Source: Gnetum montanum (taxonomy: Eukaryota; Plantae; Gnetophyta). From it: DNA of 64,000 nt. Each line of letters starts with the position of its first letter. Position 1 is the first letter of the stretch. Shown piece after piece: positions 9,264 through 54,621 of this stretch. Location of the stretch: NCBI GenBank assembly GCA_015680685.1, contig MNCI01002843.1, positions 1 through 64,000 on the forward strand, written 5' to 3'. The notes below the pieces were generated by a model. That model saw only the letters and a list, made by a program, of their open reading frames with translations. It was not told the DNA's origin and did not search any database. Made by a program: the position numbers and the translations under genes.

Positions 9264-9691
9264 TGTTATGAAATTAATTAAATCTGCAAATTGAAATAAC
9301 AAAGACAACAAAATAAATATACGTGGAAATGCCAAAGTGGAGATGGAACCAATGCAAGGCTTTTCTGTTATTTGGAAAAAATATCCCAAAGACAATTTGT
9401 TTTTGATAGTTCTCACAGCTTCTTGTTGCCATGATACTATTTAAGTCTTTACTTTCACACTTTGTTGTTGTGGTTCTTAACACATATTTCTACCCTTAAT
9501 TATAACAGAAAATAATAGTTTTTTTTAATTACAAACTTTAAATAATTTTAAAAATTGCTAATTATATCTCAAGAAGAGAATTCTTCACATTAGAGAAAGT
9601 TATGAAGGACATACCTTAAATCAATAAAAAATAGAGAAAGAGTTTTCTTCACATTGATTGATAGTTAACAATTCTTAAATTTTTACATTAA
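9264..9691 (-). repeat. Copia 3' LTR
   Basis: Starts TGTTATGAAATTAATTAAATC on + and aligns with 13977-14431. Confidence 0.88.
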
Positions 9692-9950
9692 CTGCTTCTA
9701 CCACTTGAAGAAAAATCTGACAAATCTTCACATTAGAGTTGCATTGGTTTCAAGTTGCATTTTTACATCTCTTATTCTAAGCTATTTTGTGCAAAAAAAA
9801 AACATGCACATCATTTGCCACTACTTCAGGGAATGCATTCACAACATTTTTCTTCATGCTAATTTTCTGCAAATTAATTAAACCTTCTTCAAGAGCATTT
9901 CTAATAAAATGATATTTAATATCAATATGTTTTGTTTTGTTATGATATGC

Positions 9951-10298
9951 GAGGCCGATACATGTTTCAAGCAATACAAGAAACACAAACACCTGTCTCA
10001 CTTCGAGGTCGTGGACCTGAGCCTTTATTTTCGCTTGTTGACCTTCAGGTCGAAGTGAGGTGTGCCTCTTCGGGTGGTCCCTACGAGGTGGGTTACTCCT
10101 GCATCTACGGGTACGGCAGCAAGAAGGGGTAAGGTCAAACCTTACCAACTCCCCTTCCTCCTGTGGCACAAGCAAAGAATCCTGTTCTTTGTTGGGTAAC
10201 CAACAAATCAAGTAAAAAGTCAAATATTAGTTGGGTAACCAACACGCATGTAATGACGGTTATGACGTATGTCACCACCGACAGCCTCTGGCGAGGTG
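9951..10298. other. ~350-bp GC-richer, hairpin-rich insertion of unknown origin inside the copia RNase H
   Basis: Splits the RNase H motif SALHLARNS / AYHNKTKHIDI. Contains several inverted repeats (see findings). Confidence 0.85.
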
Positions 10299-13200: not shown

Positions 13201-13962
13201 AACTTTGTTTTTCTCCTTCTATTTCAGTGATGCTTTCCACACTTTGTAACCACGATAGTCCCTTTTCATGTGACCAATTTTGCGGCGAAACCAGCATTCA
13301 TTCCTTCTTTTAGGTATTTCTCTACTTTTACTCCTTTCCATACTTTGATTAGGTCCCCTACTTTGATCACATTTATTAGATCTCCCTCTATTTGAAACTA
13401 TAAAAGAATTACCTAATGATTGACCTTGTTCTTTAGGTAATCTTTTTTTTGCATCCTAAACAGTAGAAATTAGAAATATTACGGGTACTCATAGAGGTAG
13501 TAATAGTTGTAATAATTGGATTCCAAGATTTAGGTAAAGAATTCAAAACAATATAACACTTCACTAGCTCTAGAATTATTACTTTTAAATTCTTCAAATT
13601 TAACAAAAACAGTGATCATATCATCTAGATGATCTTGCAAAGACACCTTCTTTCATCTTTGCATTAAAAACCTTTTGATAAATATGAAACTGATTCAAAC
13701 CTAAAGCTTTAGCCAAAGAACATGAGGATCATTTTCATTAGAAAGAGATGCTAAAATTTTGTTGCTCAAATAGGGATAGATTAGCATTAGTGCTTTTGCT
13801 TGCAACTTTTTCTTGTCATCATCTAACATCTTTGTAGGTTTTGAAGGTTGCAGAGCCTCATCACACTCCTTTTGTGCCAAGATATCTTTCATTAGCACAC
13901 TCCATATGTTCTAATTTTGACCAATATGCTTGTTTGTTGTCTATAACCACTCCATCAACCTC

Positions 13963-13974
13963 GCTCTGATACCA
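13963..13974 (-). promoter_or_regulatory. Primer-binding site, tRNA-iMet
   Basis: Minus strand reads TGGTATCAGAGC next to the LTR end. Confidence 0.95.
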
Positions 13975-13976
13975 CT

Positions 13977-14431
13977 TGTTATGAAATTTAATTAAATCTA
14001 CAAACTAAAACAACAAAGACAATAAGTAAAACACACGAAAATTTATGTAGAAAATCCCAAAGTGGGAAAAAACCATGGGAACTAGTGCAAAACTCTTCCT
14101 TTATTTGGACAAAATATCCAAAGGACACAAGTCATCCTTGATAACTCTCATAGCTTGTTGCTTCCATGACACTCTTAAGTCCTTCCATTCACACTTTGTA
14201 GCTATTATTATGGTGGTTCTTAACACATCTTCCCACCCTTAATTTATAGGAGAAAACACCAAATTTTTTTCTATTACAAACTTTAGATAATTTTAGAAAC
14301 TGCTAATCATATCTTCAGAAAAGATTACAAAGCTGTAAGTTATGAAAGACATGACTTAAATTGATATAAAATAGAAGAAAAATTTTCTTCACATTAATCA
14401 ACAATTAACAATTCTTAATTTTTCACATTAA
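13977..14431 (-). repeat. Copia 5' LTR
   Basis: Starts TGTTATGAAATTTAATTAAATC on +, 2 nt from the PBS. Confidence 0.88.
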
Positions 14432-14649
14432 TTGACAACTGAAAAATTCATACTTGAAATTCCTTTGGCAACCATGTTGTTACATTTAGCTAAGCATTGT
14501 GGTACATCGTATGGTAGCTCCTGAGTGCATGAAAAATATGCATGTTGGATATGCATGCTATGTGGTAAGGAGGCATTGCATGTGAGGCATAGTTTACATA
14601 TCCAAGTAACTTGGTAAGGAGGCATTGCTATGTATATGTCTTGGGCTGA

Positions 14650-16297: not shown

Positions 16298-16665
16298 CTA
16301 TTTAGGTGCTGGTGGTGGTGGCTCTTCCATTGGTTGATACCCCTTGTCATCAGGCTTCTGAAATTTGTATCTATTTAGGAGCACCTGAAGTTTCTCCTCC
16401 TCCATTCTAGGGTCATGTACCATCCATGTTTGTTGCATAATATGTGATGGAGCTAGTACATCCCATGGACATGGTAGTTGTGGAAACATTTGATTAGCCT
16501 TGACATACTAGGCCATGAACTATCTCCTCTCTTCTTCAAATGCTTTAGCCTCTACTCATAACTCATGACAATATGAAAATATTTTGGCTAGATTTGTTGC
16601 AACATCCTTATGTCCCTGTTAGCCAACCTTTACTGCTTCTAATTCATAGTTTGCTACTTAAAGTT
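16298..16665 (-). pseudogene. Element C extra ORF, 3' part
   Basis: MFPQLPCPWDV..DPRMEEEKLQ..PMEEPPP* matches the C-terminus of the B ORF (24136-24366). Confidence 0.85.
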
Positions 16666-17527
16666 TGATGGGATGTGATATCGCATGGGCCACGATATTG
16701 CGTATGTGATATCACATCAACCACAATATCGCATCCCTCACAATATCACGTCGTTCCCCGCGATATTGCATACGCAATATCGCAGTCCGCCACCAATTCT
16801 ATAAATAAGAGGCGGATCTCCCTTGTTTTTCATTCTAGGCCTAGACCATAGCGAAACTTTGGCAGTTTTACCTCCCCAAAGATAGAATAATTTCCATGTG
16901 CCCATAGTAGAAGCTCCAAAGTGAACGGATCTTTATTCAAGCAAATATTATACCTGAACACAAGTTTGTATACGGAAATAAAGATGAACAGTTGGATAAA
17001 CCTTGTAGTGCATGGACTAAGCTAATTAGGATTTTAATTACTGTTATTTATTGTTTATCATTTAAATGCTTTATTAGTTAATCAAATCTCTCTCAACCCT
17101 TCTCCAATAGTTAAGTGCATTTAGTATGACCACTTCGAGCACGTGCGTTACGCTTGGTGATCCCAGTAACGAATAGCGTTTGGTAACCAAGGTTGCATTG
17201 GTTCAGGGTGTGAATGGTAAGTGGGAACAGATGTTGATGCTAGGTTAATTAAGGCATAGTTAGTTAGTTAAAGTTAGTTAATTAGTCTCTTCACCTTTTA
17301 CCCCATTAGCATAGGTGATAAAACAGAAAAGATATAAAAATCACAAATCTCAGACTTACTTAACCATACAACCGTGACAACTACAAGTAAGTCTGGGAAG
17401 ACAACGAACGATTAACCTTAAGTGTTCCATAAGGCGTGTAGGCACTTAGTTTGCGGAGTTTGACCGGATCGCACATGTAATGCTCGTATTCATATGGTTG
17501 AGTGTAGGGGTACCTCGCCACTCATCA
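16666..17527 (+). repeat. Element A 5' LTR
   Basis: TGATG...CATCA termini, 7 palindrome copies, then TATAAATA at ~16800. Confidence 0.95.
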
Positions 17528-17528
17528 T

Positions 17529-17546
17529 TGGCGCCGTTGCCGGGGA
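17529..17546 (+). promoter_or_regulatory. tRNA-Asp PBS
   Basis: TGGCGCCGTTGCCGGGGA, complementary to the 3' end of plant tRNA-Asp, typical of the Athila lineage. Confidence 0.93.
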
Positions 17547-17671
17547 CTAAGTGTTTGTGTGCTAAGTTGAACATAGAAAATTATCCACATCATTGGGAGC
17601 TTAAACAAACCCTTAGGGTTAATTAAACAAAACAATTATATAATGGTTAATTAGCACATCGATAAGACACA

Positions 17672-20600
17672 ATGTCTTCTTCTTCTTCTCATAAAAGCAC
17701 TTCACCACCTAGGGATCACAAAAGAGCCAATCAGCGGTCTAACACACGTAACCAACCACCACCAGTTCCTCAGCAGCATCAGGTAGTGTATACTCATCAT
17801 GATGAGTATATACCAAATTTTACCTTTATCCTCCATCAAGATGAACAACTGTGATGGAGAGACTTGCAAGGTAACATAGTGTTACCTCTAGATCATTCAA
17901 TCCCAAACATGCTCCTCCGTGCTCTTGCACAAATAGACATGACGCAGCTATATGCTGAATATGTTGTAGGAGATTTTGACACAAGGGATTACCATCCCAC
18001 AGTAGCACAACGTTTAAGGGACTCGAGGCAGGAGAGCTATCATACATGGTTGAAGGGCAAAGGGCCCCGTAACGGTTCACCCGTCATAAGCGAGATCAAG
18101 GGTGGTGAACCTATTTTCATAGGTTCTCCACAAAATGATGTTCCCCTCCTAACGATGGTGAGGAGGTTGGGTATCAAAACCTACACTTCACGATTCACAA
18201 CCTTGGTTCTGATCCCCGTGAACGCCAACTGTTCACTGAGGGAACAAAAACATATGATAAGGACAGGCATTTAGATCATCATCACGATCAGGGCCGTAGC
18301 CACTGAAGAGAAGGTAAGAAACATCGTCATGGCAATGGTTCCCCTTCTTCTTTCCCTTCATCACATCATTCACCCTCTCCTTCCACATCAGGGCATAGTC
18401 ACAAAGAGCACAACGATGAGGATAAGGGTAAGCAAGATGAGAGACCTCAACGAGAGAGTCAAGAGAGAGGATGAGGGTATTCATGAGAATCAAGGCATAG
18501 AAGGGAAAGTAGGGAACCACGTAGGCATCATAGACATCATGAGAGAGATGATCATGACGAACCCTTACTAGCAACCTAGAGTATGTTAGATATTACGGAG
18601 GCTGTGAGAATACCTACAAGGCATAAAAAAGATAGCCGGATCAAGAGATTAGATATGAATAATATCCCATGCTTTGAAGGGGGATACAATGTTGATCCGC
18701 AGAATCATTTATAGGCATTCCACGATGCCTGTGCCTTGCAAAATATTGAAAAAAAGAGACAGAAGTTAAAGTTGTTTCCTAGGACACTCATAAAAGAGGC
18801 AAAAAGTTGGTACCGGTTCTTAGAACTGGAAACCATTAGGAGGTGGAGTACAATGTTATAATTTTTTAACGATAAATACCAAACGTACTCCAGAGTGTCC
18901 AACTTGCATAGGTAGATCCAAGGATGGAAGCAGGGTAATCATGAACCCTTGGATGCTGCCATGGGCCGATACTATGCTTTACTACATCATTGCCTGGACC
19001 ATGGTTACGCACAACGGGATCAACTCCACCACCTCGTAGATGGGCTAAGACATGAAACTAGGAGAACCCATGGGACATAAACCCAAGGGAGATTATCTAA
19101 ACTTAGATCCCATGAAATTCATCAATTTTTGAAGCAAGTAGCTAAAGAATAAGGGGAGCTACGGAAAAGAGAGAGCGTGGAAGAATATAACCGTGATCCT
19201 TCCCTCTGAAAGAGGGGAGTAAGATTTTGTGATGAAGAGGATGAGTCACCACTCGAAGAGTTAGTGAATAGAAAAACCTTGCCTCTTCAAAAGCTAACAA
19301 TGGAAGTATCAGCTAAGGTAGATGAAATATGGAGCTCCTTAGATAGTAAAATTGAAACTATCATAAAAATCGTAGAGGAGTCTAAGGAGGAACGAAGTAG
19401 TGACCAGGATAAGAAAAAGAGAAGAGATTCAGGCCATGCATGTGATAAGGGTAAGGAAAAAATGACTATCGCCGATGAGGTTGTGGATTCTAACACAGAT
19501 AATGACGGTGGATGTGAGATTTGCCAATATGACCATCCTAAGGGATGTTGCCCAATAATCTCACATCTACAAGAGTCTGGGATTTATGCACTCAACCCAA
19601 GACATAACCAACGGAAAGCACCCCGAAGGTTACCTTATCCCCAAGGTAACCCGAGGCAGTTCCACCGACTGTTAACATATTATCCAAGTGGAACTCCACC
19701 ACAACCTATCAGGCAACACCAACAGTGGCAACACCCACAGTCATGGGGGATGCCACTGCCTAGGCAACAATACCCTTACTCGCAACCAGATCCATATGGC
19801 TACTACGTGTAGCAGCTGATTTCTCCAAGTGACTCTATGGGTCAGGCAACTCCACAACGTCACTACCAAGTTTGGGAGTATTTTAGGACTCCTCCTATGA
19901 AAGACACACCATACACATACCATTCTTTGAATCCATCCACCACTCATACACCGATAGTTCCACTACCACCCACTCCAACAATGCAAGGGGAACTCCCCAC
20001 TCAACCGCAGCAACGCACTGCTACAAGAGCTGTGAATCTTCAACCTGCTGTTGGTTCTGACAACCATAAAAGGAGAAGACCTTTCTTCAAAACCAAAAGC
20101 CCAAACAAGCTCTCACGACCACAAGCGGTTGAGTCCGTGCACGCTCCTCCAACAAATAAGGCTTCGGAGCTCCCTTCAAACCAACAACAGGGCTTAATGC
20201 ATATGGTTATGTTAACACATATCATAACTGACTGGATAAAGGTGGGCCACCTTCCCAGGAAACTCTCTGACCCTGGGAGTCCCTTAATCTATCTACAAGT
20301 CATTGGGAATGAACCTCATAAGGCTCTTCTTGACTCAAGTTCCAGAGTCAACTTAATCTCACGAGAAATGTATAAAGCCTGGAACCTACCTCCACTCAAG
20401 AAGAGCAATATTCAACTAGAGCTGGCTAACTAGTCCATCACCATTCCCTTGGGATTGGTGGAGGACATCATTACCACTGTGTGTGGTTGGTCATACCCAG
20501 TCAATTTCCTAGTGATAGAAGTTAACAGTAATAAATGGAACTTTCTAATTATAATGGGGAGGGCATGGCTCAGCACTCTCAACGTGTGCCTAGGGATCCA

Positions 20601-20960
20601 CGATCTTTCCTTGGAAATATCTAAGTAAAATATTTATGGAAAGATCGAGAAGAAGAAAGTTCCATGCATCACATATAGTGACTCAGAGGGTGATGACATG
20701 GGGGAATGCTCAGCATTTCCTGCATGTAACCGGTGTGCACCAGAGGATAACATACAAAGGTGCATGTATGTAGCAACCATGCAACAAGAGAACACCCAGT
20801 GGTTGATAGCTGATCAAAAAAGCAGCCCACCAACATGCATGGAACTAGCTAAGGAAACAACTTGCAATCACAACGAAAGCATGGACACATTGGAATATGA
20901 GCGTCGCCAACTTCCACCCCTTAATCTAAAAACATCAATTGGGAGAAGTTGGACACTTCT
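17672..20960 (+). pseudogene. gag: Element A gag-protease polyprotein (degenerate)
   Basis: KLKLFPRTLIKEAKSWY capsid-like motif ~18770, CEICQYDHPKGC knuckle ~19515, P/Q-rich spacer, KALLDSSSRVNLI protease site ~20320. Ends with no RT. Confidence 0.88.
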
Positions 20961-22913
20961 AAGAAATTCAAATAGGTGCTCATTATTTTGGATCTCTCCC
21001 TTTAAATTTAGTCATGGGGGAGATGACCACCTATGCTAATCATTCGAGGCCCTTAGTTCTTTTAAGTTTTTTTTTACACGTTTTTGTTTTGCACATTTTT
21101 GTTTTACAATTTCTTTAACTTTTCTTGTTTTTGTTTTACAACATCATTTATAATTTTTCATTTATTTGTAAGAGTGTGTGTTATCCATCTTGTAAGTTTG
21201 TCACCCAATAAGTGTTCTTCATGATGGTATGAACTGTTTTCTACTGGTTGCTAATGTTTGGTTTTTACCTTTAAGTTATGATGTTAATACTAAGGTATGG
21301 TTCTTTTGATATGACAGGCAATGAGTCCACTTCATCCATACACCCACAAATTTCTATGGTCTCTCTTGGCTTGGAATTGTACAGTCCCTTCTCAATAATA
21401 AGAACTATAACAAATCAATGATTGGGCAATTCTCAAACTAAGGAAGGACTCAAGGATTGAAAAGGGTATGACTTCAAGGGAACTTGATGCATTTGTGTTG
21501 GCCATTCTCTTGGATGCTTGGATGTTTTCTTCTTGAGTTTTCTTACCACTTCGATGTTACCCAATTATCAGGAAGCTGAGCTAATAAAAATAAGAAGTCT
21601 TTGCATGGTGTGGTTCTCACACATAAACACACAAGAAAAAAATGGTGAGGATTCAAAGCACACCCCTTAGACGAAATAATCATTTGGGCTGCAAGCATTG
21701 GTTATGGAACTCAAATATACATGTTCCCTCTAACTAAGGCCCTTCTCACTTCCCATTCTCTCCTCATTTGTTTTGTCGAAATGGTGGTGGCTCTTTGAGG
21801 GATGCATTCTTGTTACTTCGAGTGGATAGACTAGCTGAATGCATTACTGCAAAGTTAGTGGATGTGGTTTGTTTGAGGCCAGACTTGGAATGGGATCTAC
21901 TAAGTCACAGTAATCATTAAAAACACAAGGGGCTGTACATCACCTTGTTCTTGAGATTCCATTCCATTCTCTTCTTTCCATCATTCTTCCTCCATTATTC
22001 ACCTCATTGTCGGTTGTATCATTAGTGTATATTTTGGTTATTTTCTTTTTGGTAAATTCTTGTGGTTAAGACTTTAACTCTTGTTCCAAATGACATTCCC
22101 AGAGCCTACGGACTCTTTGAATGTGGGTTTGTCAAGCCATTAAGGGCATGAGCCTACTGTGGGGATGACCCACTAGCATTCCTATTTGGTACACCAGCTA
22201 AATTCTTTCCCTTAACATTTTTGCAATCCACTCTGTTTTGTTCATTTCCATCTTGACATCTATTTCATCGACGTTATAGTTGTTTCTTTTTCTCCATCTT
22301 TCTTGTTCTTTTTTTTTCTCCATTCTATCGCTACCAGAGGTTCGCTCTTAGTCATGGGGGTCCTGGTCCAATTTTTTCAATTTTCTCCTAACCCCTACAC
22401 CTTCGGTAGTCACCATGAATATATCTCCAAATCCGCATTAGCCATACCACAACCCAGCCAATGGACCTTTCACCGAAGCAAGGTATCAATTACATTATGA
22501 TTCATTTACCCTTGCTAATATATGATTGTGTTGTGTGTGCAGATGGCAATCATACAACAACGGATTGGATATGGAGGGAACACTTGGAATCGATCAGTGC
22601 TGAAGCAGCTATGCAAGGAGCAAGATCGATTGCATGCTTATGGATAGACAACGAAAGACGCAATCTTGGCATTGGCAGTAGCAAACTTCTTCTCTCTTCT
22701 CTCTTCTCTCTCAGCTGCCAACTAAGGCCTAATGTCAAATGTATAAAGTGTTCACTCTTGTTGTTGTGAACGCCAGCTTTGTCTTGTTTTGTAATGATGA
22801 TCTGTTCACATGTCATCCCATTCATCATTAGTTCCATTCAAGTCAATAATCCCATACCTTCCCAATATTTTGTAAGGAACTCAAGGATGAGTTTTTATTC
22901 AGTCATCATGGTA

Positions 22914-23741
22914 TGATGCGATGCGATATCGCGTACATGATATCGCATCAGCCGCGATATTGCATCATTCCTTACAATATTGCGTACGCAATATCGCGAT
23001 CCACCACCAGTTCTATAAATAAGAGGCGGCTCTCCCTTGTTTCTCATTCTAGGCCTAGACCGTAGTGAAACTCTGGCAATTTTACCTTCCCAGAGATAGA
23101 ATAATTTCCATGTGCCTGCAGTAGGAGCTCCAAAGTGAACGAATCTTTATTCGAGCAAATATTGTACCTGAACACAAGTTTGTGTACGAAAATAAAGACG
23201 AACTGTTGGATAAACCTTGTAGTGCATGGACTAAGCTAATTAGGATTTTAATTACTATTATTTATTGTTTATCATTTAAATGCTTTATTAGTTAATCAAA
23301 TCTCTCTCAACCCTTCTCCCATAGCTAAGTGCATTCAGTATGACCACTTCGAGCACGTTCGTTATGCTTGGTGATCCCAGTAACGAATAGCATTTGGTAA
23401 CCAAGGTTGCATTGGTTCAGGGTGTGAACGGTAAGTGGGAATGGATGCTAATGCTAGGTTAATTAACGCTTATTTAGTTAGTTAAAGTTAGTCAATTAGT
23501 CTCTTCACCTTTTACCCCATTAGCATAGGCGATAAAACAGAAAAGATATTAAAATCACATACCTCAGACTTACTTAACCATACAACCGTGAAAACTATAA
23601 GTAAGTCTAGGAAGACAACGAACGATTAACCTTAAGTGTTCCATAAGGCATGTAGGTACTTAGTCTACGGAGTTCAACTGGATCGCACATGTAATGCTCG
23701 TATTCGTATGGTTGAGTGTAGGGGTACCTCGCCACTCATCA
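22914..23741 (+). repeat. Element A second LTR
   Basis: Near-identical to 16666-17527 but with 5 palindrome copies. Preceded by a PPT-region block, followed by a PBS-like 18-mer. Confidence 0.95.
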
Positions 23742-24135
23742 TTGGCACCATTACCGGGGATTAAGTGTTTGTGCGCTAAGTTGAACATAGAAAATTATCC
23801 ACATCGTTGGGAGCTACTTAAAACTAAACATTTAAAAACTCTAAAAATTTTCTACCAGATCTATCTACCTCTTATTTATAGATGAGGAGACAGGCTGTGA
23901 TATCGCGTACATGATATCGTGGCCAACAAAATGATAACTCATCATACCCCCACAAATGAATGAAAACTCATCCTCGAGTTATAGTGAGGACAAGCTCCAT
24001 TGATTACACAGTGGATAGGTATGGGATTATTGACTGGTGAGAATGGGTTCATGCCATAGTTTGGAATCAGAACAAAATTGAGACACAACACAAAGAATGT
24101 GAAAGAAAATCCTATAGCTACAAAATTGATGGAAC

Positions 24136-26928
24136 TCATGTAGTTCCTAGTGGTGGTGGCTCCTCCATGGGTGCCTTTCCCTTGTCTTGTGCTCCAGGTC
24201 TTGGGACTTGATGGCATTGAATTATGGCTTGGAGTTTCTCCTCTTCGATTCGTGGATCCTGTGCTGTCCATGTTAATGTTCCGATGTTTGATGGAGTCGA
24301 CACCTCCGATGGGCAGGGTAGTTGTAGAAACATTTTATTTTCCTTGACATACCAAGCCGCAAACACCCGTCATTCCTCCTTGTAGGCTCTAGCTTTGTCT
24401 CTGTATTCCTGAAAATCTACAAGCCATCAAGCCAAGTCTGTTGCAACACCTTTTTATCCCTGGTAGCTTGCTTTAACCACCTCAAGTTTAGAATTTGCAA
24501 CCTCCAATTTTTGCAATATCTTCTTGCATTCTGCAAATTCTATTTCATATTTAATGTAGGTGGTGGCTACCTAGTACTTGAGCTCTATTCTCGAGCACCT
24601 TGTTATTAACATGGCAAGGTTGGCATATCGCAGGTTTGCCAACTCCATGTATTCTGTAAGGTCTTGGATCTGCAAGTCCTGGTTCTTAACTTCCACCTAG
24701 TGGGCAAATGCATATGTGTCTAATATGGCCCGCCAATCAGTGTGTTGAGCACTGATAGCATTGATGTGGGGCTTGGCCATATGGATCTCCTTCTCAAAGA
24801 TCTTTTTATACATCCCCAACTGGTCCCGGAAGTGCTCCTTTAGCTTTTCATGTCATTTAGCCTCATTCTGCCATGCGCTTATTTCAATATCCATCTTCTG
24901 GCGAATGGCGTGTACCTCCTCCATTGAGAGGGTTTGATTTTCCCTGGCTAAATAATTCATGTCCTAGTTGACCCGGATGAGTTGTTCTCGTAATTGCTAA
25001 AAATGTTCTTCGAGAACATTCTTTTGCTTTTCCAAGGAGGTCAACCGAAGGTTGTTAGCAACAAGCTACTTGTTTTCCTCTTGTAAGGCCTTGAGTGCCT
25101 TGGTATGTGCATAAGTTTGCGCTTGTGCTACAGAGGCATCCGAAATAGCCTTCTCTTTTTCTTCTGCCACCTTCTTATTCTCTGTTAATAGTTTGTTCAG
25201 TTGCTCAGTTTTAAAAGTATCCAGCTGGTCTGTAGGAACAAATTGCGAAGGATCTCGCTGTGCTGCTTGTAGGGCCATGAGCCTTTCTTGTAATTTTTGC
25301 ACCTCTGCTTCAGCGTGCTCGACCCTCATCTCTGTTAAGACAAGCTTTCCCTTGGTGAAAATGAGGTTTGATTGAATTGTTGTAACATCCTGAGGGATGT
25401 TAAATAGGGACGTCATTACCTATCCTGTTTATAGTAATCAATCAAGTACATCCTCATGTTTCACAGGAGTCATTGAGGTTCCAGCCAGAGTTTGAGTATC
25501 CCATGCTCCTGAAAGATCTGCCAGTGGCACAATAGGTACATTAAACAATTCTTTAATGTGATCTGCGACCACTTCTACGGCTCCTGCTACATCCTCGTGC
25601 TGCATGACCACCATTGTGGCCCCTTCACCAGTTTCTAATTGCACTTGAAATGATGTAGTATTCCCTGAGATCTGTTGTGAGCAAGTGCTCTCCCCTCCTC
25701 CTGTATGGATGAACACTTCACCTCTTGTGCGATCCAAAGAAACTGTGGGGTGTATGGCATCATTGATGATGCGAAAGAGATTTTCATCATCACGACTTCC
25801 CCAACTGACAGTCTCAGTGATGGCCCTGAGATGGCTCATCGACAGTCTATAATCTTGCAGTGACAGCAGTTGATCCTGGCCCTTGCTAGACCCTACTTCT
25901 TGTTGTTGGCTGGGCCCTATACTTGTAAGTTGGCTGGGTCCTACAAGTTGAGTTGTAGTTGGTCCTGCCGTCTATTCTTTTTCTTGTTCTGGTCCTAGCG
26001 TCTCATCAGTGATTTTCCTTGCGATTGGTGGCTTTAGCAATTCAGCATATGAAGCATTTTGGGCTTTTCAAAGGACATCATTGGTGTATCCTCTGATATC
26101 AACACGTCAGCACAGCTTCCTGATAAGACAAGGGAAGGGTAACACCATCTTCCCTGTCTTCTGTTTTTCAAACCGCCTCGAGATCTCTATGAAGTATAGA
26201 TGAGGTAGGTTAGCATTAACCTTTCCCATCAATACTGCACATCCCCTTACCACATATGTTGAAATTCTTTCTAAGCCCTTCATGGGAAAGAGGTGATAAG
26301 TCCCTATTTTAAAATAGATCCTCTCTTCTGTCGTCAACTCTCCAAATGTCTTATCCTCCTTGCCACATGCCCTTTCCAACCAAACTCGTCATGCATCAGG
26401 GTTTGAACAAGTAGACAATTGAGCAACCTTTGGCCCTATATTTGGAAGGTTTAATACTTTTGAAATGGCCTAAACAAAGAAATCGATTGTCACACCACAC
26501 ATGTTAACTGTGGTGCCTTGTTCTCTATTGTGCCAAAATTGGTACGTTTCCCCTAAGTACCAGGCACCACTTTTAGGGAGGATAGGCCATAATGGGGACC
26601 CTTTAAGGTGGCCCCTAACGGCCTTTGAAGCAAACTCTGTGAAAGATTCAAAATTTAATTCCATAATCACCGCAATGAATATGGACCTTTCATGGATAGC
26701 CTAAACACAATCCTGGGGCAATGTGAGATGTTGTCCCTGTTCAAGCGCTATCGCAGCTCCTCCTTCTGCCTACCTTGATTGTATAGTAGTAGTGTCCTAT
26801 TGGTGAATGTTAAATGATTGTTCCTCCTGCTCTGCATGCTATCTGGTAGGAACTTGTCCTTTGCCTCTCCTAGGTTGTCTGCTCCCACCTTGAGCAGGAC
26901 CTCCCTGTTGTCTGCGTTTCAGGGCCAT
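24136..26928 (-). pseudogene. Element B extra ORF: 931 codons, N-terminal plant-transposon (Transposase_32/PMD-like) domain plus long coiled coil
   Basis: ATG 26928. ORF-track pieces ending at 26670, 26379, 25839, 25416 and 24366 share one frame, broken only by point stops. Motifs YQFWHN..VNMCGVTIDF..ISKVLNLP and LPFPCLIRKLC. E/K/Q/L-rich heptad region ~25400-24350. Confidence 0.85.
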
Positions 26929-27403
26929 CTGCAATCACACGAGGCTAATCGTTAGTAAGGTTGTTCCCGAAGTTAGGCTATACCTTAATGCTTGCCTTAA
27001 TGAATTTATTTTATCTCCATGTGATGTTTCTTGAAAGATTATAATAGTGAGTCCTTTTTACTTGGGTGGTTTCCAAATTTAGTTTCTTGGTATAACTAAG
27101 GGGATGAAATTATTTTTGGCACATTTATCCTTAATGTTATAACTAATTACCCTTGATAATGTCCTTCGGGTGATGAAAAATTTCAAAAAATTTATGCGTT
27201 ATTTGACGTGTGCCCCTTCCCCATGACTAAGCTGAATCCTCCGGGTTCAAGTAGGTTCAGACGGAATGAAAATCGAAGGACCAGCGAGCGAGATATAGGT
27301 ATGAAAGCAAGGGGCACGCAATCGTAAGTTGTAGAGAGAAATTTGAAAAAATCCCCCCCGTGAATGGTTGAAAATGATGGCAAGTGGTGCAGGGGGCATC
27401 ACG

Positions 27404-27474
27404 TATATATCGATTTTTTGTGATGTGATATTGCATACATGATATTGCGTAAATATCGATAGACGCGATATCGT
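27404..27474 (-). promoter_or_regulatory. Putative internal promoter of the extra ORF (palindrome array plus TATA)
   Basis: GCGATATCGC-like copies at 27425, 27439 and 27465; TATA-like run 27404-27410; matching TATA run in C at 34678-34686. Confidence 0.55.
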
Positions 27475-28999
27475 GGCCTATCGATATTTAAGGCACAACA
27501 CAATATACCGAATTTTAAGATTTTTCTGAAATTTAAAATGTAAATTAAGGACATGTAGGCAAGTGTTAAAGGGTTCCAGAGTAATTTAGCTAGTTCTAAA
27601 GGCATGAATAATTATGTGTGGGTGGAATTGATCAATAAGGGCCTCAGGTGGTAAGGGAGAGAAAAAGGCCATGTGATGGTTCATAGGAACGTTGGAATTC
27701 GGAGGGATAGTAATAAGGGAAAGAATATCGTTGAAAATATGCTAAGGGTAATAGATGGCATGTGTGAGATGTGTTATGAGTGCAAATTACAAAAAATCAT
27801 GCAAGTGGGTTCTCCCCAAAGCAGGTTCCAACCTATAATGCCCTCGCGTAACCACACTTAAAAGTGTCCGTAGGCACTAGAAGGGTTAAATGTAATCCAT
27901 ACCAGTTTCACAAAACACACACATGTAGATACCACTGGAATGAGGTAATAATTTGACACTATATGAGATGTGAGCTACAATTACATGAATAGTGAGATGA
28001 GACGAACTATAGAAGGGATTGTAGAGATTGGGACATGAGGTATCTGACCCAGGGCACATTGAATCCTACGTGTAAAGCATGATTACTGTGTCATTAACCC
28101 GTTGTTCCAAGATCAGGACCAAGTCCATTCCTCTAATCAGTGACATCACATTGTGTCATCCCATGATGAGCGACTATGAGAGTACCATAACAAGGCGTAT
28201 GATCACTTGGCATTTTGTTCAAGGGAAGAGTGATTTTTGCTTTGTGGCACTTCCTTTGTGGTTGTTTTTTTTTTGTTTTTGTTTTTTTTATTACTGAATC
28301 CAGAGAAACCACCAACCTTCAAGCATGGGTGTATGCCTTTCCAGTGGAACCCCCTAGAACAGCATTGGATTTTTAAGTGCCTTTTAATTACTCTTACTCC
28401 CATTTTGCGTTAGATCTACAAGGATCTTAGTACAACCACGTTGCGTGATAACTCCCACAAACGTCACCAAAGAGAATCCTCAAGTTCCCTTGATGTCACA
28501 CCCTAATCATTCCCTCTTGATCCATCCTTCTTCATTCTAGGTATAATGAACACAAAATTAATTTTAATTTTTAAGAATGTCAAGAATATCACTGTACCCT
28601 CGAATAGAACCTTTTATTTGTAGAGTGGATGAGTGGGTGTAATGGGCTCACTATCCAAATAATTAATCACTCAAGACTCGATAACATAGAACACACCTCA
28701 ACCAATGAGCCACATGAGTGTTTTATTCATAGATGAGATTACTTATAAAAAGATAAAAAGATAAAACAAGAAATTGAAAAATGAAAAACTGGAAAACAAA
28801 AAATTTTAAAATTAAAGAAAATGAAAAAATATTTATTAGTCCTGCTTGTTATTAGAATGGGGGATATGCCCCATAACTAAATGGTTGAGCATGGTGAGGA
28901 CTAATAAATGAAAGATGAGGATCCTTGCATGTTGGAAATATTGAAACTTGGTCATACTTACCCCATTGGGGTTCACACACCTGATGATAGTAAGCATAG

Positions 29000-30850
29000 T
29001 GAGGCAATTTACAAGATGTGATTCTTGGGTAAAGAGTTAACCCACTATGATATTTGAGACTATAAGATGGTACACAAGGATTGAGATGTCACTCTCCATG
29101 GCTGTATTCATTGGACCATATGGTTATTGGAGTGTTAATTGGTGGCCCTGATGAAGTGACACGAGGCATTGGGTTCGAAGAGAAGGATGTACCACAGTGT
29201 TGGACTTGTGCTAAATTGGAGAATGCAATGGCCTCGAAACTATGTTGTCCCTTCCTATGGTCATGTCTAAAGAAGGGATGCCTTCGATGTTGCTGAGGTC
29301 TCTCACTACTGTTGGAAATAGTAGCACAAGTAACATTCATGGGTTGTTGCTGTGGTGTAAACACTTCAGGAACAGTTGGTGGCGACGTAGAAGGAGGGAA
29401 AGGATGAGAATGTTGAAATTTAGGAGAAGTGTAAGGTACACAAGGCAATGGTTGTGTTGAGGACATGGGCTGATAGTACCGAGAAGAATCATAATGCAGC
29501 GAGATAGAGTATGTTGACCTAGTTGGGGAAATAGGATGTTGAACTACATAAGCATTTAGATTCGGATAATACGAAGGGTGTCTCCAGTTTAGGGATATCT
29601 TCCCCCACGATTGGGATTGTTACCATTGTGATCAAACACAATATCTCTGTCCAAACTATGGGTGTAACATGCTTCCCCAATGCTCATATAATTGTAACAA
29701 GATTGGACATTGGCCCTTGATGTGATCATATAGGCAAATGTTGCATTCATACGTGTGATTGGCAGTTGAGCTCTTATTTTCTTCATCCCTTCTTTCCAAT
29801 TGTCTCATGATACTTTGTCTTGCTTCTCAGGTTGTCAAAACTCTATCTTCAATAATATCAATATATTCTCCACACTTTTTATGTGTCCATTCCAACATCT
29901 TATTGATCTTTGCCTCGACTTCTTCTAGTGAGTTTTGTATTGGCAAAGATGGTTCTTCCTCCTTGAGATAGGTTGATTTCTCCTTTTTATGATTATGGAC
30001 CTCTGTTAAGTTGAGATTTTGGTCCCATTGATGCTTTTCAACACTCTCCCATCTAGCCATTTCTCCTTCTTCTTTTGCTACCTGCTTAATAAGCTCTTGG
30101 AATTTATGGGTTCATAGTTTGTATAGTTGACCTTGGGCATACATCCCTAGGGTTTCTCTTGTTGCATCATGAAGCCCATCAATGATATGGTACATTAGCC
30201 TTTCCTTAGCGAACTCATGGCCTGGACAGTTGTTTAATAGTGCATAATATCTTTCTAAGGCCATGTCCAAGGGTTCATGTTGTGCTTGGTTCCACTCTTA
30301 GATTTGTTTCCTCAAGGCCGACACTCTTGCGTAGGTTTGATATATTTCATTAAAGATTTCTACCATTGTTGGCCAATGTCATATTGAATTTGGTTTTAAC
30401 GATCTATACCAGACTTTTGCTTGGCCAACAAGTGTCATAGGAAAGAGCTTAAGTTTTTGCCAACCATTATCAATGAATGTTGTTCCATGCATAGGCATCG
30501 TAGAAGGCTTGTAAATGTTGTTGTGGATCTAAGTCATAGCCTTCTGAAAAATTGGAAAAGTTGTTTAAATCAAGCCTGGGTAGGCGGCTCTCTTTACGAT
30601 GCCTACGGGAGATTTGAACAGCCTCTTGTATTTGTGTTAGGCTTGTAGTGGCTAGTAGGGGTTCATCATCATCGAGTAAGTTATGCTTTCGTGTGTTGGG
30701 ATGATGCTACCTTTGTTTATGTTTATAAGAAACCCCGACTTCGGATTGTGTACTCCAATCTTCATTGTCATATAATTCGTTGGTCCTCCAATGAATTGCC
30801 TCATTGGATATGACATTATCATAGTCTTGTAGGAGAGGCATGGTTGTGCA
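29000..30850 (-). pseudogene. gag: Element B gag (degenerate, short N-terminus, no protease)
   Basis: KLKLFPMTLVGQAKVWYRSLKP ~30430 and CNICLYDHIKGQC ~29720. P-rich tail followed directly by the internal PPT-like motif at ~28870. Confidence 0.85.
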
Positions 30851-30963
30851 ATTGTGTGTGAGTTTGTATGTGACTTTTTATAATTATTTCTACCTAAAAG
30901 ATATATCATTAATTCCTATACAGTGACCTTGTATGATATAACTAATCTAGATAACTAGCATCG

Positions 30964-30981
30964 TCCCCGGCAATGGTGCCA
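30964..30981 (-). promoter_or_regulatory. tRNA-Asp PBS of element B
   Basis: Minus strand TGGCACCATTGCCGGGGA. Confidence 0.88.
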
Positions 30982-30982
30982 A

Positions 30983-31771
30983 TGATGAGTGGCAAGGTAC
31001 CCCTACACTCAACTATATGAATATGAGCATTTCACACAAAATCGAGTTGAACTCCACAAATGGACTAGTTGTGGTATCTAGATAGTTACTCGTAGATCGC
31101 AGTTCGATGTCTTCCCACCTAGACTAGTATTAGCTATGTCACATATGGTTTAGTACAGCGTGAGATGTATGATGTGTTCCTATACTAATGCTACTCCTGG
31201 GGCTAATGGAAAATAATGTTAAATAAACTAGGAGAGAGAGAGAGAGAGTCTAAGCTAGCCTAAGTGCGATGAGAATCCATTCCTTAATCATTCGTACACA
31301 TCTTGGACTTCATGCATGACTACTACTGGGATTACCAAGCACAGATCCTAGGTACGCTACTGGGTTACCAAGTAGTCACACTTAAATGCTCATGATCAAG
31401 TCGTACTCATTCTGCGTTTAATAGGAGTTTAGGGTAAAGAGATGTTAACTATGAAAGCAATAAATAACAATAAAAATTAAATAATTAAACTAAGTGAATG
31501 TTGCAATGATGAAGTAATCTTGATCTTTATTGTCAGTCATGTGCATGTCCAAGTACGTCACACTCGAATAAGGATGTCGTACAATTACAATCACCACACT
31601 ACGGGCATGCATTGGGAGAAAAGGGTTGAGAGAATAACTACTTAAAACTAAACATTTAAAAACTCTAAAAATTGCCTACCAGATCTATCTACCTCTTATT
31701 TATAGATGAGGAGACAAGCTGCGATATCCCGTATGCGATATTGCGGCCAACAAAATGATGATAACTCATCA
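30983..31771 (-). repeat. Element B 5' LTR
   Basis: TGATG...CATCA termini, family blocks, adjacent PBS. Confidence 0.92.
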
Positions 31772-34126
31772 CCTATTGTTAACATGGCTAGGTTAGCATA
31801 GCAAAGGTTAGCTAACCCCACATATTCTTTCAAATTTTCCATCTATAGGTCATTATTTTTAACTTTCGCTTGGTGGGCATGAGCATAACTATCCAAGATG
31901 GGTTGCTAGTCTAGATTCTATGCTGATATGGAGCTAATTTGGGCCTTTGCCTTCTAAATCTCCTTCTATTGATTTTTTTATACATTCCTACCTAATCAAG
32001 GAAGTGTTCCTTTAGCTTTTCATGCTTCTTAGCTTCATTTTTCCATGCGCTAATCTCAATAGTTGATTTCTATCTAATTACACATACCTTCTTCAGGTTC
32101 TATTCTTCCTTGCTAAGTGACTCATATCTTGGTTAGCCCTCATCAATTGATCTCTCAACTAATGGATGCTTTCCTCCAAGATATTCTTTTGCTTCTTGAT
32201 GTTGGTTAACCTGGTATTATTTGCAGTAAGTTTTTTATTCTCTTCTTGTGTTGTTGTAAGTGCCTTAGCATGTGTATATGATTGTGCTTCTACTACTGAG
32301 GCATTTCACACCACTTTCTTCTTATTCTCCATCTGCTTATTTTACTTTAGCAGATAATTGAATTATTTTGTTCTAAATTGTTCTAGTTGATCAAGCGCAA
32401 TGTATTGAGTAACATCTTTGTGTTTTGCCCTCAAGGTCATAAGCTCTTCCTATAGTCTAAGGATTTCAACTTCTACATGCTTCGCCTTGGTCTTTGCCAT
32501 GACCAGCTTACCCCTAGTTACGAACATCTCTAACTGCACTACAATGACATCACTTAGAATGTCAAAAAGAATTATCATCACCTATCCAATCTACAACAGT
32601 TGATCTAGCACATCCTCATGATCAGTATAATTCATTGAGGTGCTAGCTCACATTTGAGGATCTTTGGCTCCAATTAGATCCACTAGTGGCATAACATGTA
32701 TGTTGAAAGATTTTTTAATGTGATCTATGATCACTTCTATGGCTCTTGTGGCATCTTGATGCTACATAATCACAACTGTGGCTCCTTCTATTTCAAGCAC
32801 CACTTGGAATGATGTAACGTTCTCAGAAATCTATTGTGACCATTAGGCCTCTCCTCCTAACTGCAATGGTTTCTATCCACTTACAAGATCTATGGAAACT
32901 ATGGGCTACATGACAATATCAATCACTTTGTAGAGGTTGGCCTCCTCCCCTGTTCCCCAAATAATAGTCTCTACAATTTGTTGCAGATGACTTATTGATG
33001 GCTTGTACTCCTGTGGCGACGATGGTGGAACTTGCTGTTGCTACTATTGTTTTTGTTACTACTGCTACTATTATTGTTGTTGCTACTACTGCTCTTATTG
33101 CTACTATTGCTCTTGTTGCTACTAACCAATGGGTCCCACTTGTTATTTTTGTTTAGTAACTTATGTGGTTTTCCTAGCTTCAATTTCTTTCTCCACTTAA
33201 TCTTTCTTTGGTGGTGCCAGCTTGAGGATTTCAGCATAAGAGACATTTTGAGCCTTCCTAAGGACATCATTAGTATACCCCAAGATTCCAACACATTTAC
33301 ATAGCTTCTTGATTAGGTAAGGAATGGAAGTATCAACTTCCCTACCTTCTTTTCCTCAAACCACCTTTGAATCTCCATAAAATAAAGTTGTGCAAGATTT
33401 TCATTGTACTTTCCCATCAAAATCACACTTCCTCTAGCCACATAGGTGGACAATTTGTTCAATCTCTTTATGAGAAATAGGTGGTACATGCCAATTTTGA
33501 AATAATTTCTTTCCTCCAGATTTAATTCATTATACTCTTTATCTTCTTGGTCATATGCCCTTTTTAGCAACAATTTTCTAGTTTTTTTTATTTAACCTGG
33601 TGGATAGAGGTGCTAATCTTGCCCCTTCATCAGGCATGTTCAAAGCTTGTCCTATTGCCTTGACTAAATAAGAAACAAAGACTCCTTCAATGTTTATTGT
33701 AGCATCTTCATCTTTGTTATGCCAGAACTGGTAAGTCTTCCCTAAATACCATTCATTACTATTGAAAAGGATGGGCCATAGTGGTGCTGCTTGGAGTTAT
33801 GTCCTTACCACTTCTAGAACAAACTCTACAAATGTTCCAAAGTTCATTTTCCCAATCACTGTGGTTAAGAGCAATCTCTCCTAGATATCTTGGAGACATT
33901 CTTGTGATAGTGTGAGATGCTATCCTTGTTCTTGTAGTCCTTCAGCATATGCTTGGACCAATTGTTCGATAGTAGGAGCTTCTTGACGAATATGGAAGGA
34001 TTGAGCCTCTTGCTCTACATGTTCTACTTGTGGCTCTTGTGCTCCTATTTGGCCTCTTCCTTGGCCTCTTGGTCGTTTGCTTGTCAATTTTGAGGGTCCT
34101 CCTATTTCTCTTCCCTTTGGGACCAT
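31772..34126 (-). pseudogene. Element C extra (env-position) ORF, 5' part
   Basis: ATG at 34126. Colinear with element B extra ORF (YFKIGMYHLF, KLILPFL, coiled-coil region). Interrupted at 31772 by the nested block. Confidence 0.85.
33030..33125 (-). repeat. Decayed CAA/CAG (poly-Gln) microsatellite in the linker of the element C extra ORF
   Basis: About 30 TTG/CTG/CTA/TTA triplets on +. Absent at the equivalent position in B. Confidence 0.85.
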
Positions 34127-36249
34127 TTGCAATCATCGAGGAATGAGGACTTATTAGAATGTGTTCTCTAAATTTTATAACTCCCTTCCTTTCTCATACC
34201 TTTAGTTAGATCAAATTCCTAGTTTATTAGGATTGTAGAGTTAGAAATATTTTCAAAAAGAAACCCCATAAGTGTTAATTTACTTATAACCTTTCACAAT
34301 TGTCCATTTCATTCTTGTTCATGGCTTGTAATGATTGTTATGGTTCCTTAAGACCATTATTTAAGTGTTTCTAGCATTAATGTGATTAATTTTTATTGAA
34401 AATTTTCAAGTTTCCCTTCATACTTACCCTTATAATACCTTTCGGACATTAGCAAATTCTAAAAATTTGGGTCAAATTTTCCTCGCTAGCACCCCTCCAT
34501 AACTAAGATGAGCACTTTGGGATCAGATAGATTCAAAAATCACTAAAATTGGAGCAATAGTAAGCAAGTTATGGTTTGGGAAAGCTAGGAGGTTATAGTG
34601 CAAATTGTATAAGAAAAATGGTAAAATCTCCCTTACTCAAATGTGAAAAATGAAAAAAAATTCAACTCAGTCCCACCTATATATAGATTTTATAGGCTCC
34701 AATATTAGAGATATCAGAGGGGCTCAAAGGCAAAACAATCCTTATTTTTTGATAATTTTTTAGAATAAAATATGGGCCATTTGGGATGGTTAGAAGTTAC
34801 AAAGCATGTTCAGAGGATCTCAGACTATGGATGATGCATATTTTTTGAGAATTTGGCATAGAAAGTTCATAAAGAAGGAATCTTGGGCTACGAAAGTTCA
34901 TGAAGTGTTGATAAGATGTGTAATGAATTCATGTTGTTGGAATGGAGATATTGAATAATAAAGAAAGGTTTTATTGACATTTATTGGTATTGGAAGGCTT
35001 AAGATAATGTGGAATTGCTTGGCAGGTATAAGATACAATAATTATACAAGTGGATCCTCCCCAAAGTGGGCTCTAGTCCTTAATGCCCTTGTATAACCAC
35101 ACCTAAAAGTGTCCTTAGACACTCAAGGAGTTAAATATAAACATACCTGTTTAGCAAAACACACATGTTAGTATCACCAAGTTGGGAAAATCATACTATA
35201 CTATACAAAACCACAAGTTATGACTATTTGTATAGTGAGCTAAAATGGATTTAAAAGGGATTGCAGAAATCAAGACGTGAGGTGTCTTACCATAGAAATA
35301 ATGAATTCTTATGTTTTATTAGTGGTTAAAGCAATCATTAGCCTTTCTGTCCAAGATTCAAGCCAAGTCCATACCACATTCTAGTCACATTACATTGTTT
35401 CATCTCTTGGATTAACAATTGTAAGACTATCACTATTGCAAGGAGTATTGTCACTTGGCATATTATCCAAGGAAGGAGTTTATTCATGGCATTATTTATT
35501 TTCTAGATTTCTAAGAAGCTACCTACCTTCAGGCATGGGCAACGTGTCATTCCAGTGGTACCTCCAAAAATTTATTCAGTGCACTTTTTTTTTTATTTGT
35601 GTCAACCTTACCAAAGGACTACCTTCAGGCATGGGTAACATGTCTTTCTAGTGACATGGTAAGGTAGCACTTATTTTACTCTTACTCCCATATTTTGTTA
35701 GATCTACAAGGATATAATACAACCTAAGCAATAGGATAAGACTAACAAAAGTAATTCAAGAGAGTCCACAAATCCCCTTGACGTCACACCCTTTACATTT
35801 TCACTTGGTTCTTCACTTTTCTATCTAGGCCTAACAATCACATGTTTATTCTTATTTGTATGATGAAAAAAGAATATCATTATGGCCATGGTAAGAACCT
35901 CTCATTAATGGAATGGATGGATGAATTTTGTGGTCATTCAAATAATTAGTTCCTTATGACTTATGACTTGATAGCATAGAGAAATCTTCATCTTATTAGA
36001 CTACATCTTACCTTATTCATAATGTGTTTATTAGTCATCAAAATTATTTACAAAGGTTATGAAAATAAAGTATGAAAAAGATAGTAAAAACAAAAAAAGG
36101 TGTAAAGAATGAAAGATGTTAAAAGAATGGAAAAATTGTAAAGAATTGAAAAATGTCAAAGAATATCGAAATTTTAAGAAATAAAAAGTATAAAAGAATG
36201 AGAAAATATCAAAGAACATGAAATAATGAAAAGAAAACAAAAACTTCAA

Positions 36250-54554: not shown

Positions 54555-54621
54555 ATAGTAGGCAACGTAGGCACATGGAAAATTATTATAATAGGCAACG
54601 TAGGCACATGGAAAATTATTA
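54555..54621 (+). repeat. 33-bp in-frame tandem duplication (RQRRHMENYY twice) in the last exon of copy 2
   Basis: TAGGCAACGTAGGCACATGGAAAATTATTA twice. Confidence 0.9.

What the first reader, a model, noticed from the sequence alone, without database searches (positions are those of the whole stretch)
24136..27474. Self-contained gene inside the retrotransposon: a 931-codon PMD/Transposase_32-like plus coiled-coil ORF with its own TATA, non-coding exon and 5'-UTR intron
Seen in B (minus strand): TATA run 27410-27404, ~250 nt to donor AAGG|GTAATT (27150), branch point TACTAAC (26957-26951), and acceptor TTGCAG directly abutting ATG 26928. One frame then runs 931 codons with no frameshift; its stops are mostly explained by single transitions from Gln/Arg/Trp codons. 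The diverged element C repeats the layout: TATA 34686-34678, donor AAGG|GTAAGT 34427, acceptor decayed to TTGCAA, ATG 34126. Known: Athila-lineage elements carry an env-position ORF with a predicted upstream acceptor, and the FWHN..V.GVTIDF..I..VLNLP and LPFP.LI..LC motifs resemble the Pfam Transposase_32 plant transposon domain. Inference: the product has a basic N-terminus, no obvious transmembrane segment and ~350 aa of coiled coil. It looks more like an independently expressed nuclear or chromatin factor (possibly anti-silencing or scaffolding) than an envelope protein.
Basis: partly seen in the sequence, partly recalled or inferred. Interest (0 to 1): 0.8.

Follow-up and report, generated by a model that had tools for sequence, protein, structure and literature searches.

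The report
Retrotransposon accessory gene with internal promoter
A dead plant Athila-type retrotransposon carries a once-functional extra gene for a membrane-less coiled-coil protein, with a copy of the element's own LTR promoter signals just upstream, so the gene was likely transcribed from a second, internal promoter rather than only spliced from the LTR; this would be unusual, but RNA reads did not confirm it.

Summary
The coordinates are right. Element B (gag, no pol) has a 930-codon frame with 21 stops. It was under purifying selection against element C (dN/dS 0.20). It has a weak Transposase_32 (PF20167) match below Pfam's cut-off, no PMD match, no transmembrane segment and a predicted C-terminal coiled coil. 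That protein type is known: the Athila env-position ORF, already described as PF20167-like, predicted nuclear and coiled-coil, and kept by pol-less Athila families. The gene layout is the part that may be new. B-C similarity starts at the TATA, runs through a 259/258-nt leader, and is lost in the intron and upstream. Three palindromic boxes sit before B's internal TATA with almost the spacing found before all seven LTR TATA boxes of this element group in the window. This favours an internal, LTR-like promoter. RNA reads, mostly from diverged copies, drop at the acceptor, but show no 27150-26929 junction and no start site. One related contig has other sequence across the promoter. PMD, anti-silencing and a strictly non-coding exon are unsupported. 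Verdict: new variant of a known kind; internal promoter about 50%.

The parts
30983..31771 (-). 5' LTR of element B, inserted in the ORF of element C
   Evidence: TG..CA ends, match to 23814-23943, junction with C ORF
30964..30982 (-). Primer-binding site of B (tRNA-Asp type, label recalled)
   Evidence: sequence directly after the LTR end
30169..30450 (-). Retrotrans_gag core of B's broken gag; no protease, RT, RNase H or integrase follows
   Evidence: PF03732 E 1.2e-11, no pol hit in three frames of 27500-31000
27792..28690 (-). Two non-coding spacer blocks conserved between B and C (27792-28231, 28388-28690), function unknown
   Evidence: 68% identity by blastn; z 32.8 for the first block
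27426..27473 (-). Three palindromic YRATATYR boxes, the module found before the LTR TATA boxes
   Evidence: 20 of 22 bases match B's 3' LTR U3
27404..27410 (-). Internal TATA-like element
   Evidence: sequence; B-C conservation starts here
27151..27380 (-). Predicted leader exon (5' end inferred), with conserved motif and upstream ATG at 27231-27221
   Evidence: TATA to donor 259 nt in B, 258 nt in C, 61% identical, z 13.3
26929..27150 (-). Predicted 222-nt leader intron: donor 27150, branch 26957-26951, acceptor abutting ATG
   Evidence: sequence; read depth falls at the acceptor but no joint listed
24136..26928 (-). Env-position accessory ORF, 930 codons, 21 internal stops, no frameshift
26098..26514 (-). 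Transposase_32-like domain, aa 139-277
   Evidence: PF20167 E 3.7e-7, 30.6 bits against cut-off 45
24376..25392 (-). Predicted long helices / coiled coil, about aa 513-851
   Evidence: low-confidence AlphaFold2 helices; rough heptad score
23814..23955 (-). Polypurine tract and first 130 nt of B's 3' LTR, cut off at the junction with element A
34127..34707 (-). Element C equivalent: one box, TATA 34686-34678, leader, donor 34427, 301-nt intron with decayed acceptor
31772..34126 (-). C's ORF, main part, frameshifted
   Evidence: tblastn, codon comparison
16298..16666 (-). Tail of C's ORF beyond the nested insertions
   Evidence: tblastn aa 807-917, 50% identity

Best explanation
This is the dead remnant of an Athila-type accessory gene that was kept under purifying selection and was likely transcribed from its own internal promoter, likely spliced once in the leader, to make a predicted nuclear, non-membrane coiled-coil protein. 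Shown: the ORF, its selection, the lack of a transmembrane segment, the conserved leader between TATA and donor, and LTR-type boxes before the TATA. Inferred: the boxes bind the same factor as in the LTR, so the accessory mRNA would be switched on together with the genomic RNA without needing a splice from the LTR leader. Also inferred: the N-terminal Transposase_32-like domain would contact chromatin or nucleic acid and the coiled coil would oligomerise it, helping the element's transcription or nuclear steps, and pol-less elements such as B would supply it in trans. Action on the element's own boxes is the most specific version and the least supported step.
For: dN/dS 0.20, bootstrap 0.14-0.27, from 821 of 869 aligned codon pairs (48 with a stop dropped); third positions differ in 52% against 34% and 26%. 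B vs C: leader z 13.3, first 260 nt of ORF z 12.3, intron z 2.0, 250 nt upstream of TATA z 1.6. In-register identity is 7-10 of 30 in four bins before the TATA and 12-20 of 30 in six bins after it. All 7 LTR TATA boxes examined have 1-6 YRATATYR boxes within 110 nt, the last 16 nt upstream in 6 of 7; B's internal TATA has 3, 14 nt apart and 14 nt upstream; 3 unrelated CTATAAATA sites have none; 4 of 5 box clusters in 64 kb are at LTRs and the fifth is this one; 2 of 3000 simulated spacers gave such a cluster. Depth falls across the acceptor in 4 of 4 runs (54 to 17, 23 to 5, 10 to 5, 214 to 6). Best 19-residue hydropathy 1.51, no R-x-K/R-R site. Literature: sunflower Athila 3' ORF with PF20167 and predicted NLS (PMC11728184, passages); Athila-domain proteins predicted to oligomerise through coiled coils (PMC13547354, passages); pol-less gag+env Athila families with env dN/dS 0.20-0.30 (PMC2410132, passages).
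Against: No joint 26928-27151 among the 3 joints listed for 4 runs, no pile-up of starts, and intron reads are common. The zero-depth zone at the TATA tapers on both sides, and one contig runs across it with 96 other letters in place of 27397-27517, so divergence explains it as well as a start site. C has only one box. Element A keeps the leader motif, a donor and the acceptor-ATG but has no TATA module, and its upstream 178 nt do not match B (z 0.9). The introns are A-rich. The published model for Athila is splicing from the LTR transcript (PMC7197481 passages; PMC7264820). Only two full copies could be compared. Both structure models are low confidence (mean pLDDT 38.8 and 40.6), so the protein's function rests on analogy.
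Confidence: 0.5

Rival explanations
1. Classical Athila route: the ORF is expressed only from the LTR promoter as a spliced subgenomic RNA. The leader is an internal exon or RNA cis-element (a two-intron mRNA, entering for example at the conserved CTTAG), and the internal TATA is incidental.
For: This is the model in print. A has a pyrimidine tract and CAG before the conserved motif and no TATA module. Donor-like sites exist upstream in B (28964, 31597) and C (35149, 35293, 36014, 43052). Contigs and reads cross the promoter region.
Against: B-C conservation extends 178 nt upstream of CTTAG without length change (z 10.1) and stops at the TATA. The LTR-type boxes sit at promoter spacing. No LTR-to-acceptor joint was among the 15 joints shown (100 more were not shown).
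Confidence: 0.3
2. B's box cluster is a copy- or subfamily-specific U3 fragment picked up by template switching or conversion. It may act as a promoter in that lineage only, or not at all.
For: 20 of 22 bases match B's own LTR; a related contig has different sequence there; C has one box only.
Against: C has a box and a TATA at the same distance from the donor. LTR U3 box arrays also vary between copies (1-6 boxes). Sequence after the internal TATA is not LTR-like.
Confidence: 0.15
3. The product is a true envelope or cell-to-cell movement protein.
For: Env position between pol and the 3' LTR and an acceptor directly before the ATG; some plant env-like ORFs have transmembrane segments (PMC7264820).
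Against: No hydrophobic window above 1.51, a basic and polar N-terminus, no furin-type site. The best window lies inside the PF20167 match.
Confidence: 0.05

Closest known systems
Athila env-position ORF (Arabidopsis Athila ORF2 / 'Athila domain'; sunflower Athila 14 3' aORF)
   Same: Sense ORF between pol and 3' LTR; PF20167 similarity; predicted nuclear signal; coiled coils; dN/dS about 0.2; kept by pol-less gag+env elements.
   Different: 930 aa against 487 aa in sunflower; about 340 aa of predicted coiled coil; no close relative found beyond two Logan fragments; LTR-like module and leader intron upstream, where the published model is splicing from the LTR RNA.
Maize Grande gene23 and Retand antisense aORFs (Transposase_28, some with Smc-type coiled coils)
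   Same: [quoted passage not shown]
   Different: Those are antisense, in the Tat/Retand clade, with PF04195; this one is sense, Athila-like, PF20167-like.
Foamy virus internal promoter and Tas transactivator
   Same: A second, same-sense promoter inside the element drives an accessory nuclear protein; Tas acts on both the LTR and the internal promoter (abstract starts of PMC4929722, PMC8670036, PMC13220597).
   Different: Analogy only: no sequence relationship was tested or is claimed, and binding of this protein to the boxes is untested.
VANC anti-silencing proteins and MAIN/PMD
   Same: Transposon-encoded accessory proteins that bind repeated motifs in their own element (PMC12844716 passages); VANC resembles MAIN structurally (PMC13547354 section 10).
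   Different: No PMD hit, no PDB sequence hit, no usable fold; DNA transposon rather than retrotransposon.

Membership tests
Athila clade (Ty3/gypsy, OTA) | gag-PR-RT-RH-INT order in the autonomous relative | tested here: met
   C has gag, RVT_1, RT_RNaseH and rve in that order; protease seen in translation only
Athila clade (Ty3/gypsy, OTA) | No additional archaeal-type RNase H (marks Tat) and no chromodomain | tested here: met
   No such Pfam hit in three frames of C; decay could hide one; definition from PMC6317226 passages
Athila clade (Ty3/gypsy, OTA) | Sense extra ORF and long non-coding region before the 3' LTR | tested here: met
Athila clade (Ty3/gypsy, OTA) | RT/RH/INT phylogeny inside Athila | not tested
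   No reference set was fetched
Pfam Transposase_32 (PF20167) | Score at or above the gathering cut-off (45 bits) | tested here: not met
   30.6 bits whole protein, 33.9 bits domain alone; E 3.7e-7 and 3.6e-8; profile positions 37-175 of 177. Distant relative; X at stops lowers the score
Plant mobile domain (PMD, PF10536; MAIN/MAIL1) | Profile match to PMD | tested here: not met
   No hit at E up to 5 for 7 queries
Plant mobile domain (PMD) / VANC | Shared fold | tested here: inconclusive
   Models at pLDDT about 40; best Z 5.0, no Foldseek E under 0.001
SMC proteins | ABC-type ATPase head and hinge | tested here: not met
   No Pfam hit; only weak generic coiled-coil matches
Retroviral-type envelope | Signal peptide, transmembrane anchor, furin-type cleavage site | tested here: not met
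   Hydropathy maximum 1.51, basic N-terminus, no R-x-K/R-R (simple scan, no dedicated predictor)
Internal-promoter accessory gene (Grande gene23 or foamy-virus type) | Transcripts start inside the element | tested here: inconclusive
   No start pile-up; reads mostly under 90% identical; oligo-dT runs appear unstranded
Internal-promoter accessory gene (foamy-virus type) | Product binds and activates LTR and internal promoter | not testable with these tools
   Needs binding and reporter assays

The most novel reading that the evidence does not exclude
A plant LTR retrotransposon with a foamy-virus-like circuit: a same-sense internal promoter built from the LTR's palindromic boxes drives an oligomeric nuclear protein that binds those boxes and activates or de-silences both promoters, and pol-less elements supply it in trans. 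It would be a sequence-specific transactivator or anti-silencing factor for a retrotransposon and would give the Athila 'env' a function.
Probability: 0.12. Interest if true: 0.85.

Novelty: new variant of a known kind. Interest (0 to 1): 0.48.

Why it matters
The function and expression route of the Athila 'env' ORF is an old open question. A shared, short, palindromic motif at both the LTR and the ORF's upstream region gives a concrete test: map start sites, assay the fragment as a promoter, and ask what binds the boxes. A positive result would move these ORFs from 'envelope-like' to regulatory accessory genes and could explain why pol-less families keep them. If transcripts come only from the LTR, the finding is an ordinary, decayed Athila env-position ORF with an unusually long coiled coil.

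Tried and rejected
No whole genome is held, so family-wide comparison was limited to the window. Protein searches: none at E 0.001 among 7997 near-length candidates; 2 Logan fragments among 1.84 billion representatives; 1 of these again among 1050 and 4585 candidates; 53 pattern matches in metagenome contigs, none confirmed; no PDB sequence hit. The language-model atlas comparison was not obtained, so remote look-alikes of the N-terminal domain remain open. Both AlphaFold2 models were low confidence and the fold searches uninformative. No RNA holder of this exact stretch was listed; that blank is no evidence either way. Zero read depth at the TATA was rejected as start-site evidence because it tapers on both sides and coincides with a variable stretch. 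The stop-codon argument was rejected as true of any stop. No tRNA genes in the window. Three look-ups in earlier findings returned nothing. Nine paper searches showed no report of a sense internal promoter for an Athila env-position ORF in the listings and passages read. The library holds only openly licensed papers, no supplements were opened, and I recall without a call that some Arabidopsis Athila transcripts (TSI) start in the 3' part of the element, which would lower the novelty. PMC7319988, PMC12859917 and PMC11410651 (passages) gave nothing on this point.

Full report
Setting. The window is a nest of decayed plant LTR retrotransposons. Element C (minus strand; LTRs at about 44890-44032 and 16101-15285, 86% identical) has gag, RT, RNase H and integrase in Ty3/gypsy order, with no hit for a second RNase H or a chromodomain. 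By the definitions in PMC6317226 (passages) that fits the Athila clade; I did not build a tree. Element B is inserted in C's 3' ORF at 31772. It has an LTR, a PBS, a broken gag, no pol, a 1.9-kb spacer, the ORF in question, a polypurine tract and a truncated 3' LTR. A third element, A, lies on the plus strand at about 16670-23741. No whole genome is held.

Observation. The frame has 930 codons and 21 internal stops, against 31-64 in the other five frames and a minimum of 35 in 2000 shuffles. The remark about stops arising from Gln/Arg/Trp codons carries no weight, since it holds for any stop. The leader has an upstream ATG at the same offset in B and C, so it is not strictly non-coding.

The ORF was functional. 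B and C are 63% identical in DNA. Over 821 of 869 aligned codon pairs (48 with a stop dropped), dN is 0.34 and dS 1.65, ratio 0.20 (bootstrap 0.14-0.27). The ratio is lowest in the N-terminal domain and the coiled-coil part; dS is near saturation. This matches the 0.20-0.30 reported for Arabidopsis Athila env, including pol-less gag+env families (PMC2410132, passages).

The protein. Residues 139-277 match Transposase_32 at E 3.7e-7 but below the curated cut-off; PMD gives no hit. The first 30 residues are 27% Lys/Arg with no acidic residue. The best 19-residue hydropathy is 1.51 and there is no furin-type site. A rough heptad score is reached in 8 of 24 windows starting at 519-841 and 1 of 41 elsewhere. 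AlphaFold2 gives long helices over 513-851 but mean pLDDT 38.8, and a six-row alignment did not rescue the N-terminal domain (40.6); fold searches gave only generic matches. Sequence searches found two short Logan fragments and nothing named. In print, a sunflower Athila 3' ORF has PF20167 and a predicted NLS (PMC11728184, passages), and Arabidopsis Athila-domain proteins are predicted to form pentamers through coiled coils (PMC13547354, passages and section 10). So 'nuclear factor rather than envelope' is reasonable and already suggested. 'Anti-silencing' has no direct support here.

The promoter question. A TATA-like run is common in this window (118 matches), so I looked for independent signs. 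First, B and C are as alike from TATA to donor (259 and 258 nt, 61%, z 13.3) as in the first 260 nt of the ORF (z 12.3), while the intron (z 2.0) and the 250 nt upstream (z 1.6) are not significantly alike. In register, identity rises from 7-10 of 30 to 12-20 of 30 at the TATA. Second, all seven LTR TATA boxes of this element group are preceded by palindromic YRATATYR boxes, often 14 nt apart, the last 16 nt before the TATA in six of seven. B's internal TATA has three, two of them 14 nt apart and the last 14 nt before it. It is the only one of five clusters in 64 kb outside an LTR, and 2 of 3000 simulated spacers matched it. C has one box 13 nt before its TATA.

RNA. No run was listed as an RNA holder of this copy; related runs were laid at 80% likeness. 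The family is multi-copy and covered end to end. On 26650-28000, 322, 159 and 83 reads and 59 contigs were laid, of which 255, 130, 75 and 38 were under 90% identical. Depth falls across the acceptor in all four runs, and loose ends gather there (10 mixed reads and 1 contig at 26929, 4 reads at 26931). The contig's loose end is purine-rich and does not end in AG, as a spliced exon might, but it does not resemble B's leader; the four reads look like another intron end. No 26928-27151 joint and no start pile-up were listed, intron reads are common, and one contig crosses the promoter with 96 other letters in place of 27397-27517. Full-length genomic RNA or DNA in the libraries would also give such reads, and joints from diverged copies are hard to place. 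The RNA test is therefore inconclusive and mildly against abundant use of this exact junction.

Mechanism. Most likely (0.5) the ORF had its own LTR-like promoter and one leader intron, and was co-induced with the genomic RNA. Its product was probably a nuclear oligomer that assisted the element and could be supplied in trans by pol-less copies. The rivals are LTR-only splicing (0.3; the published model, PMC7197481 passages, and PMC7264820 parts 1-2 of 3), a captured U3 fragment limited to B's lineage (0.15) and a true envelope (0.05). Element A, which keeps leader motif, donor and acceptor but no TATA module, fits the first rival.

Comparison and novelty. The ORF works like, and very probably is, an Athila env-position accessory gene; it is Transposase_32-like but misses the family cut-off, and it is not PMD, SMC or envelope by the tests run. 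Own-promoter accessory genes are known for antisense ORFs of Grande (through the review; original not read), and Smc-type coils for Retand (PMC11963269, passages). A same-sense internal promoter sharing the LTR's boxes recalls foamy viruses (abstract starts only) and, for self-binding, VANC (PMC12844716, passages). Nine searches of the open library showed no such report for Athila, with the limits given under Tried and rejected. I rate it a new variant of a known kind, interest 0.48; the self-activating circuit has probability about 0.12 and would deserve 0.85.

Noticed in passing
window 24239-25075: An 837-nt in-frame deletion (279 codons, about aa 618-897) between short direct repeats appears in 4 of 4 runs (2 contigs, 10 reads, 23 reads, 1 contig). 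It has no GT-AG ends, so it is likely a DNA subfamily lacking most of the coiled coil.
   Followed up: partly
window 22347-22650 (+), element A: A (gag-protease, no RT) keeps the CTTAGTCATGG motif, a donor at 22483, a 60-nt intron-like stretch and TGCAG|ATG at 22543, followed by a 34-codon stub with no tblastn match to B's ORF.
   Followed up: partly
window 27792-28690, 35037-35980, 21440-22190: Non-coding spacer blocks conserved among B, C and more weakly A, at identities above that of the ORF; possible packaging or RNA-structure signals. C has a TACTAAC...CAG|GTATGT site at 35173-35142 (acceptor directly followed by a donor) that is decayed in B.
   Followed up: no
window 31488-31449 and from 44570 (minus strand): Acceptor-like tracts inside the 5' LTRs of B and C suggest the LTR leader may hold its own intron.
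   Followed up: no
window 23742-23815: A's 3' LTR is followed by a second PBS and 5' leader fragment before it meets B's truncated 3' LTR head to head; about 90 nt of C's ORF and the rest of B's LTR are missing.
   Followed up: partly
window 9264-14434 (-): A decayed Ty1/copia element (RVT_2, rve, SH3_retrovirus hits).
   Followed up: no
window 3509-8487 and 47896-54567: Duplicated blocks at 70-80% identity with exon-like coding stretches, probably a tandemly duplicated host gene flanking the nested retrotransposons; no Pfam hit in the raw frames.
   Followed up: no
window 26864-26931: Reads from other subfamilies match only the first 15-20 codons and then diverge; 4 reads in one run show a different T-rich stretch ending in CAG directly before the ATG, so acceptor-abutting-ATG appears shared more widely.
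   Followed up: no
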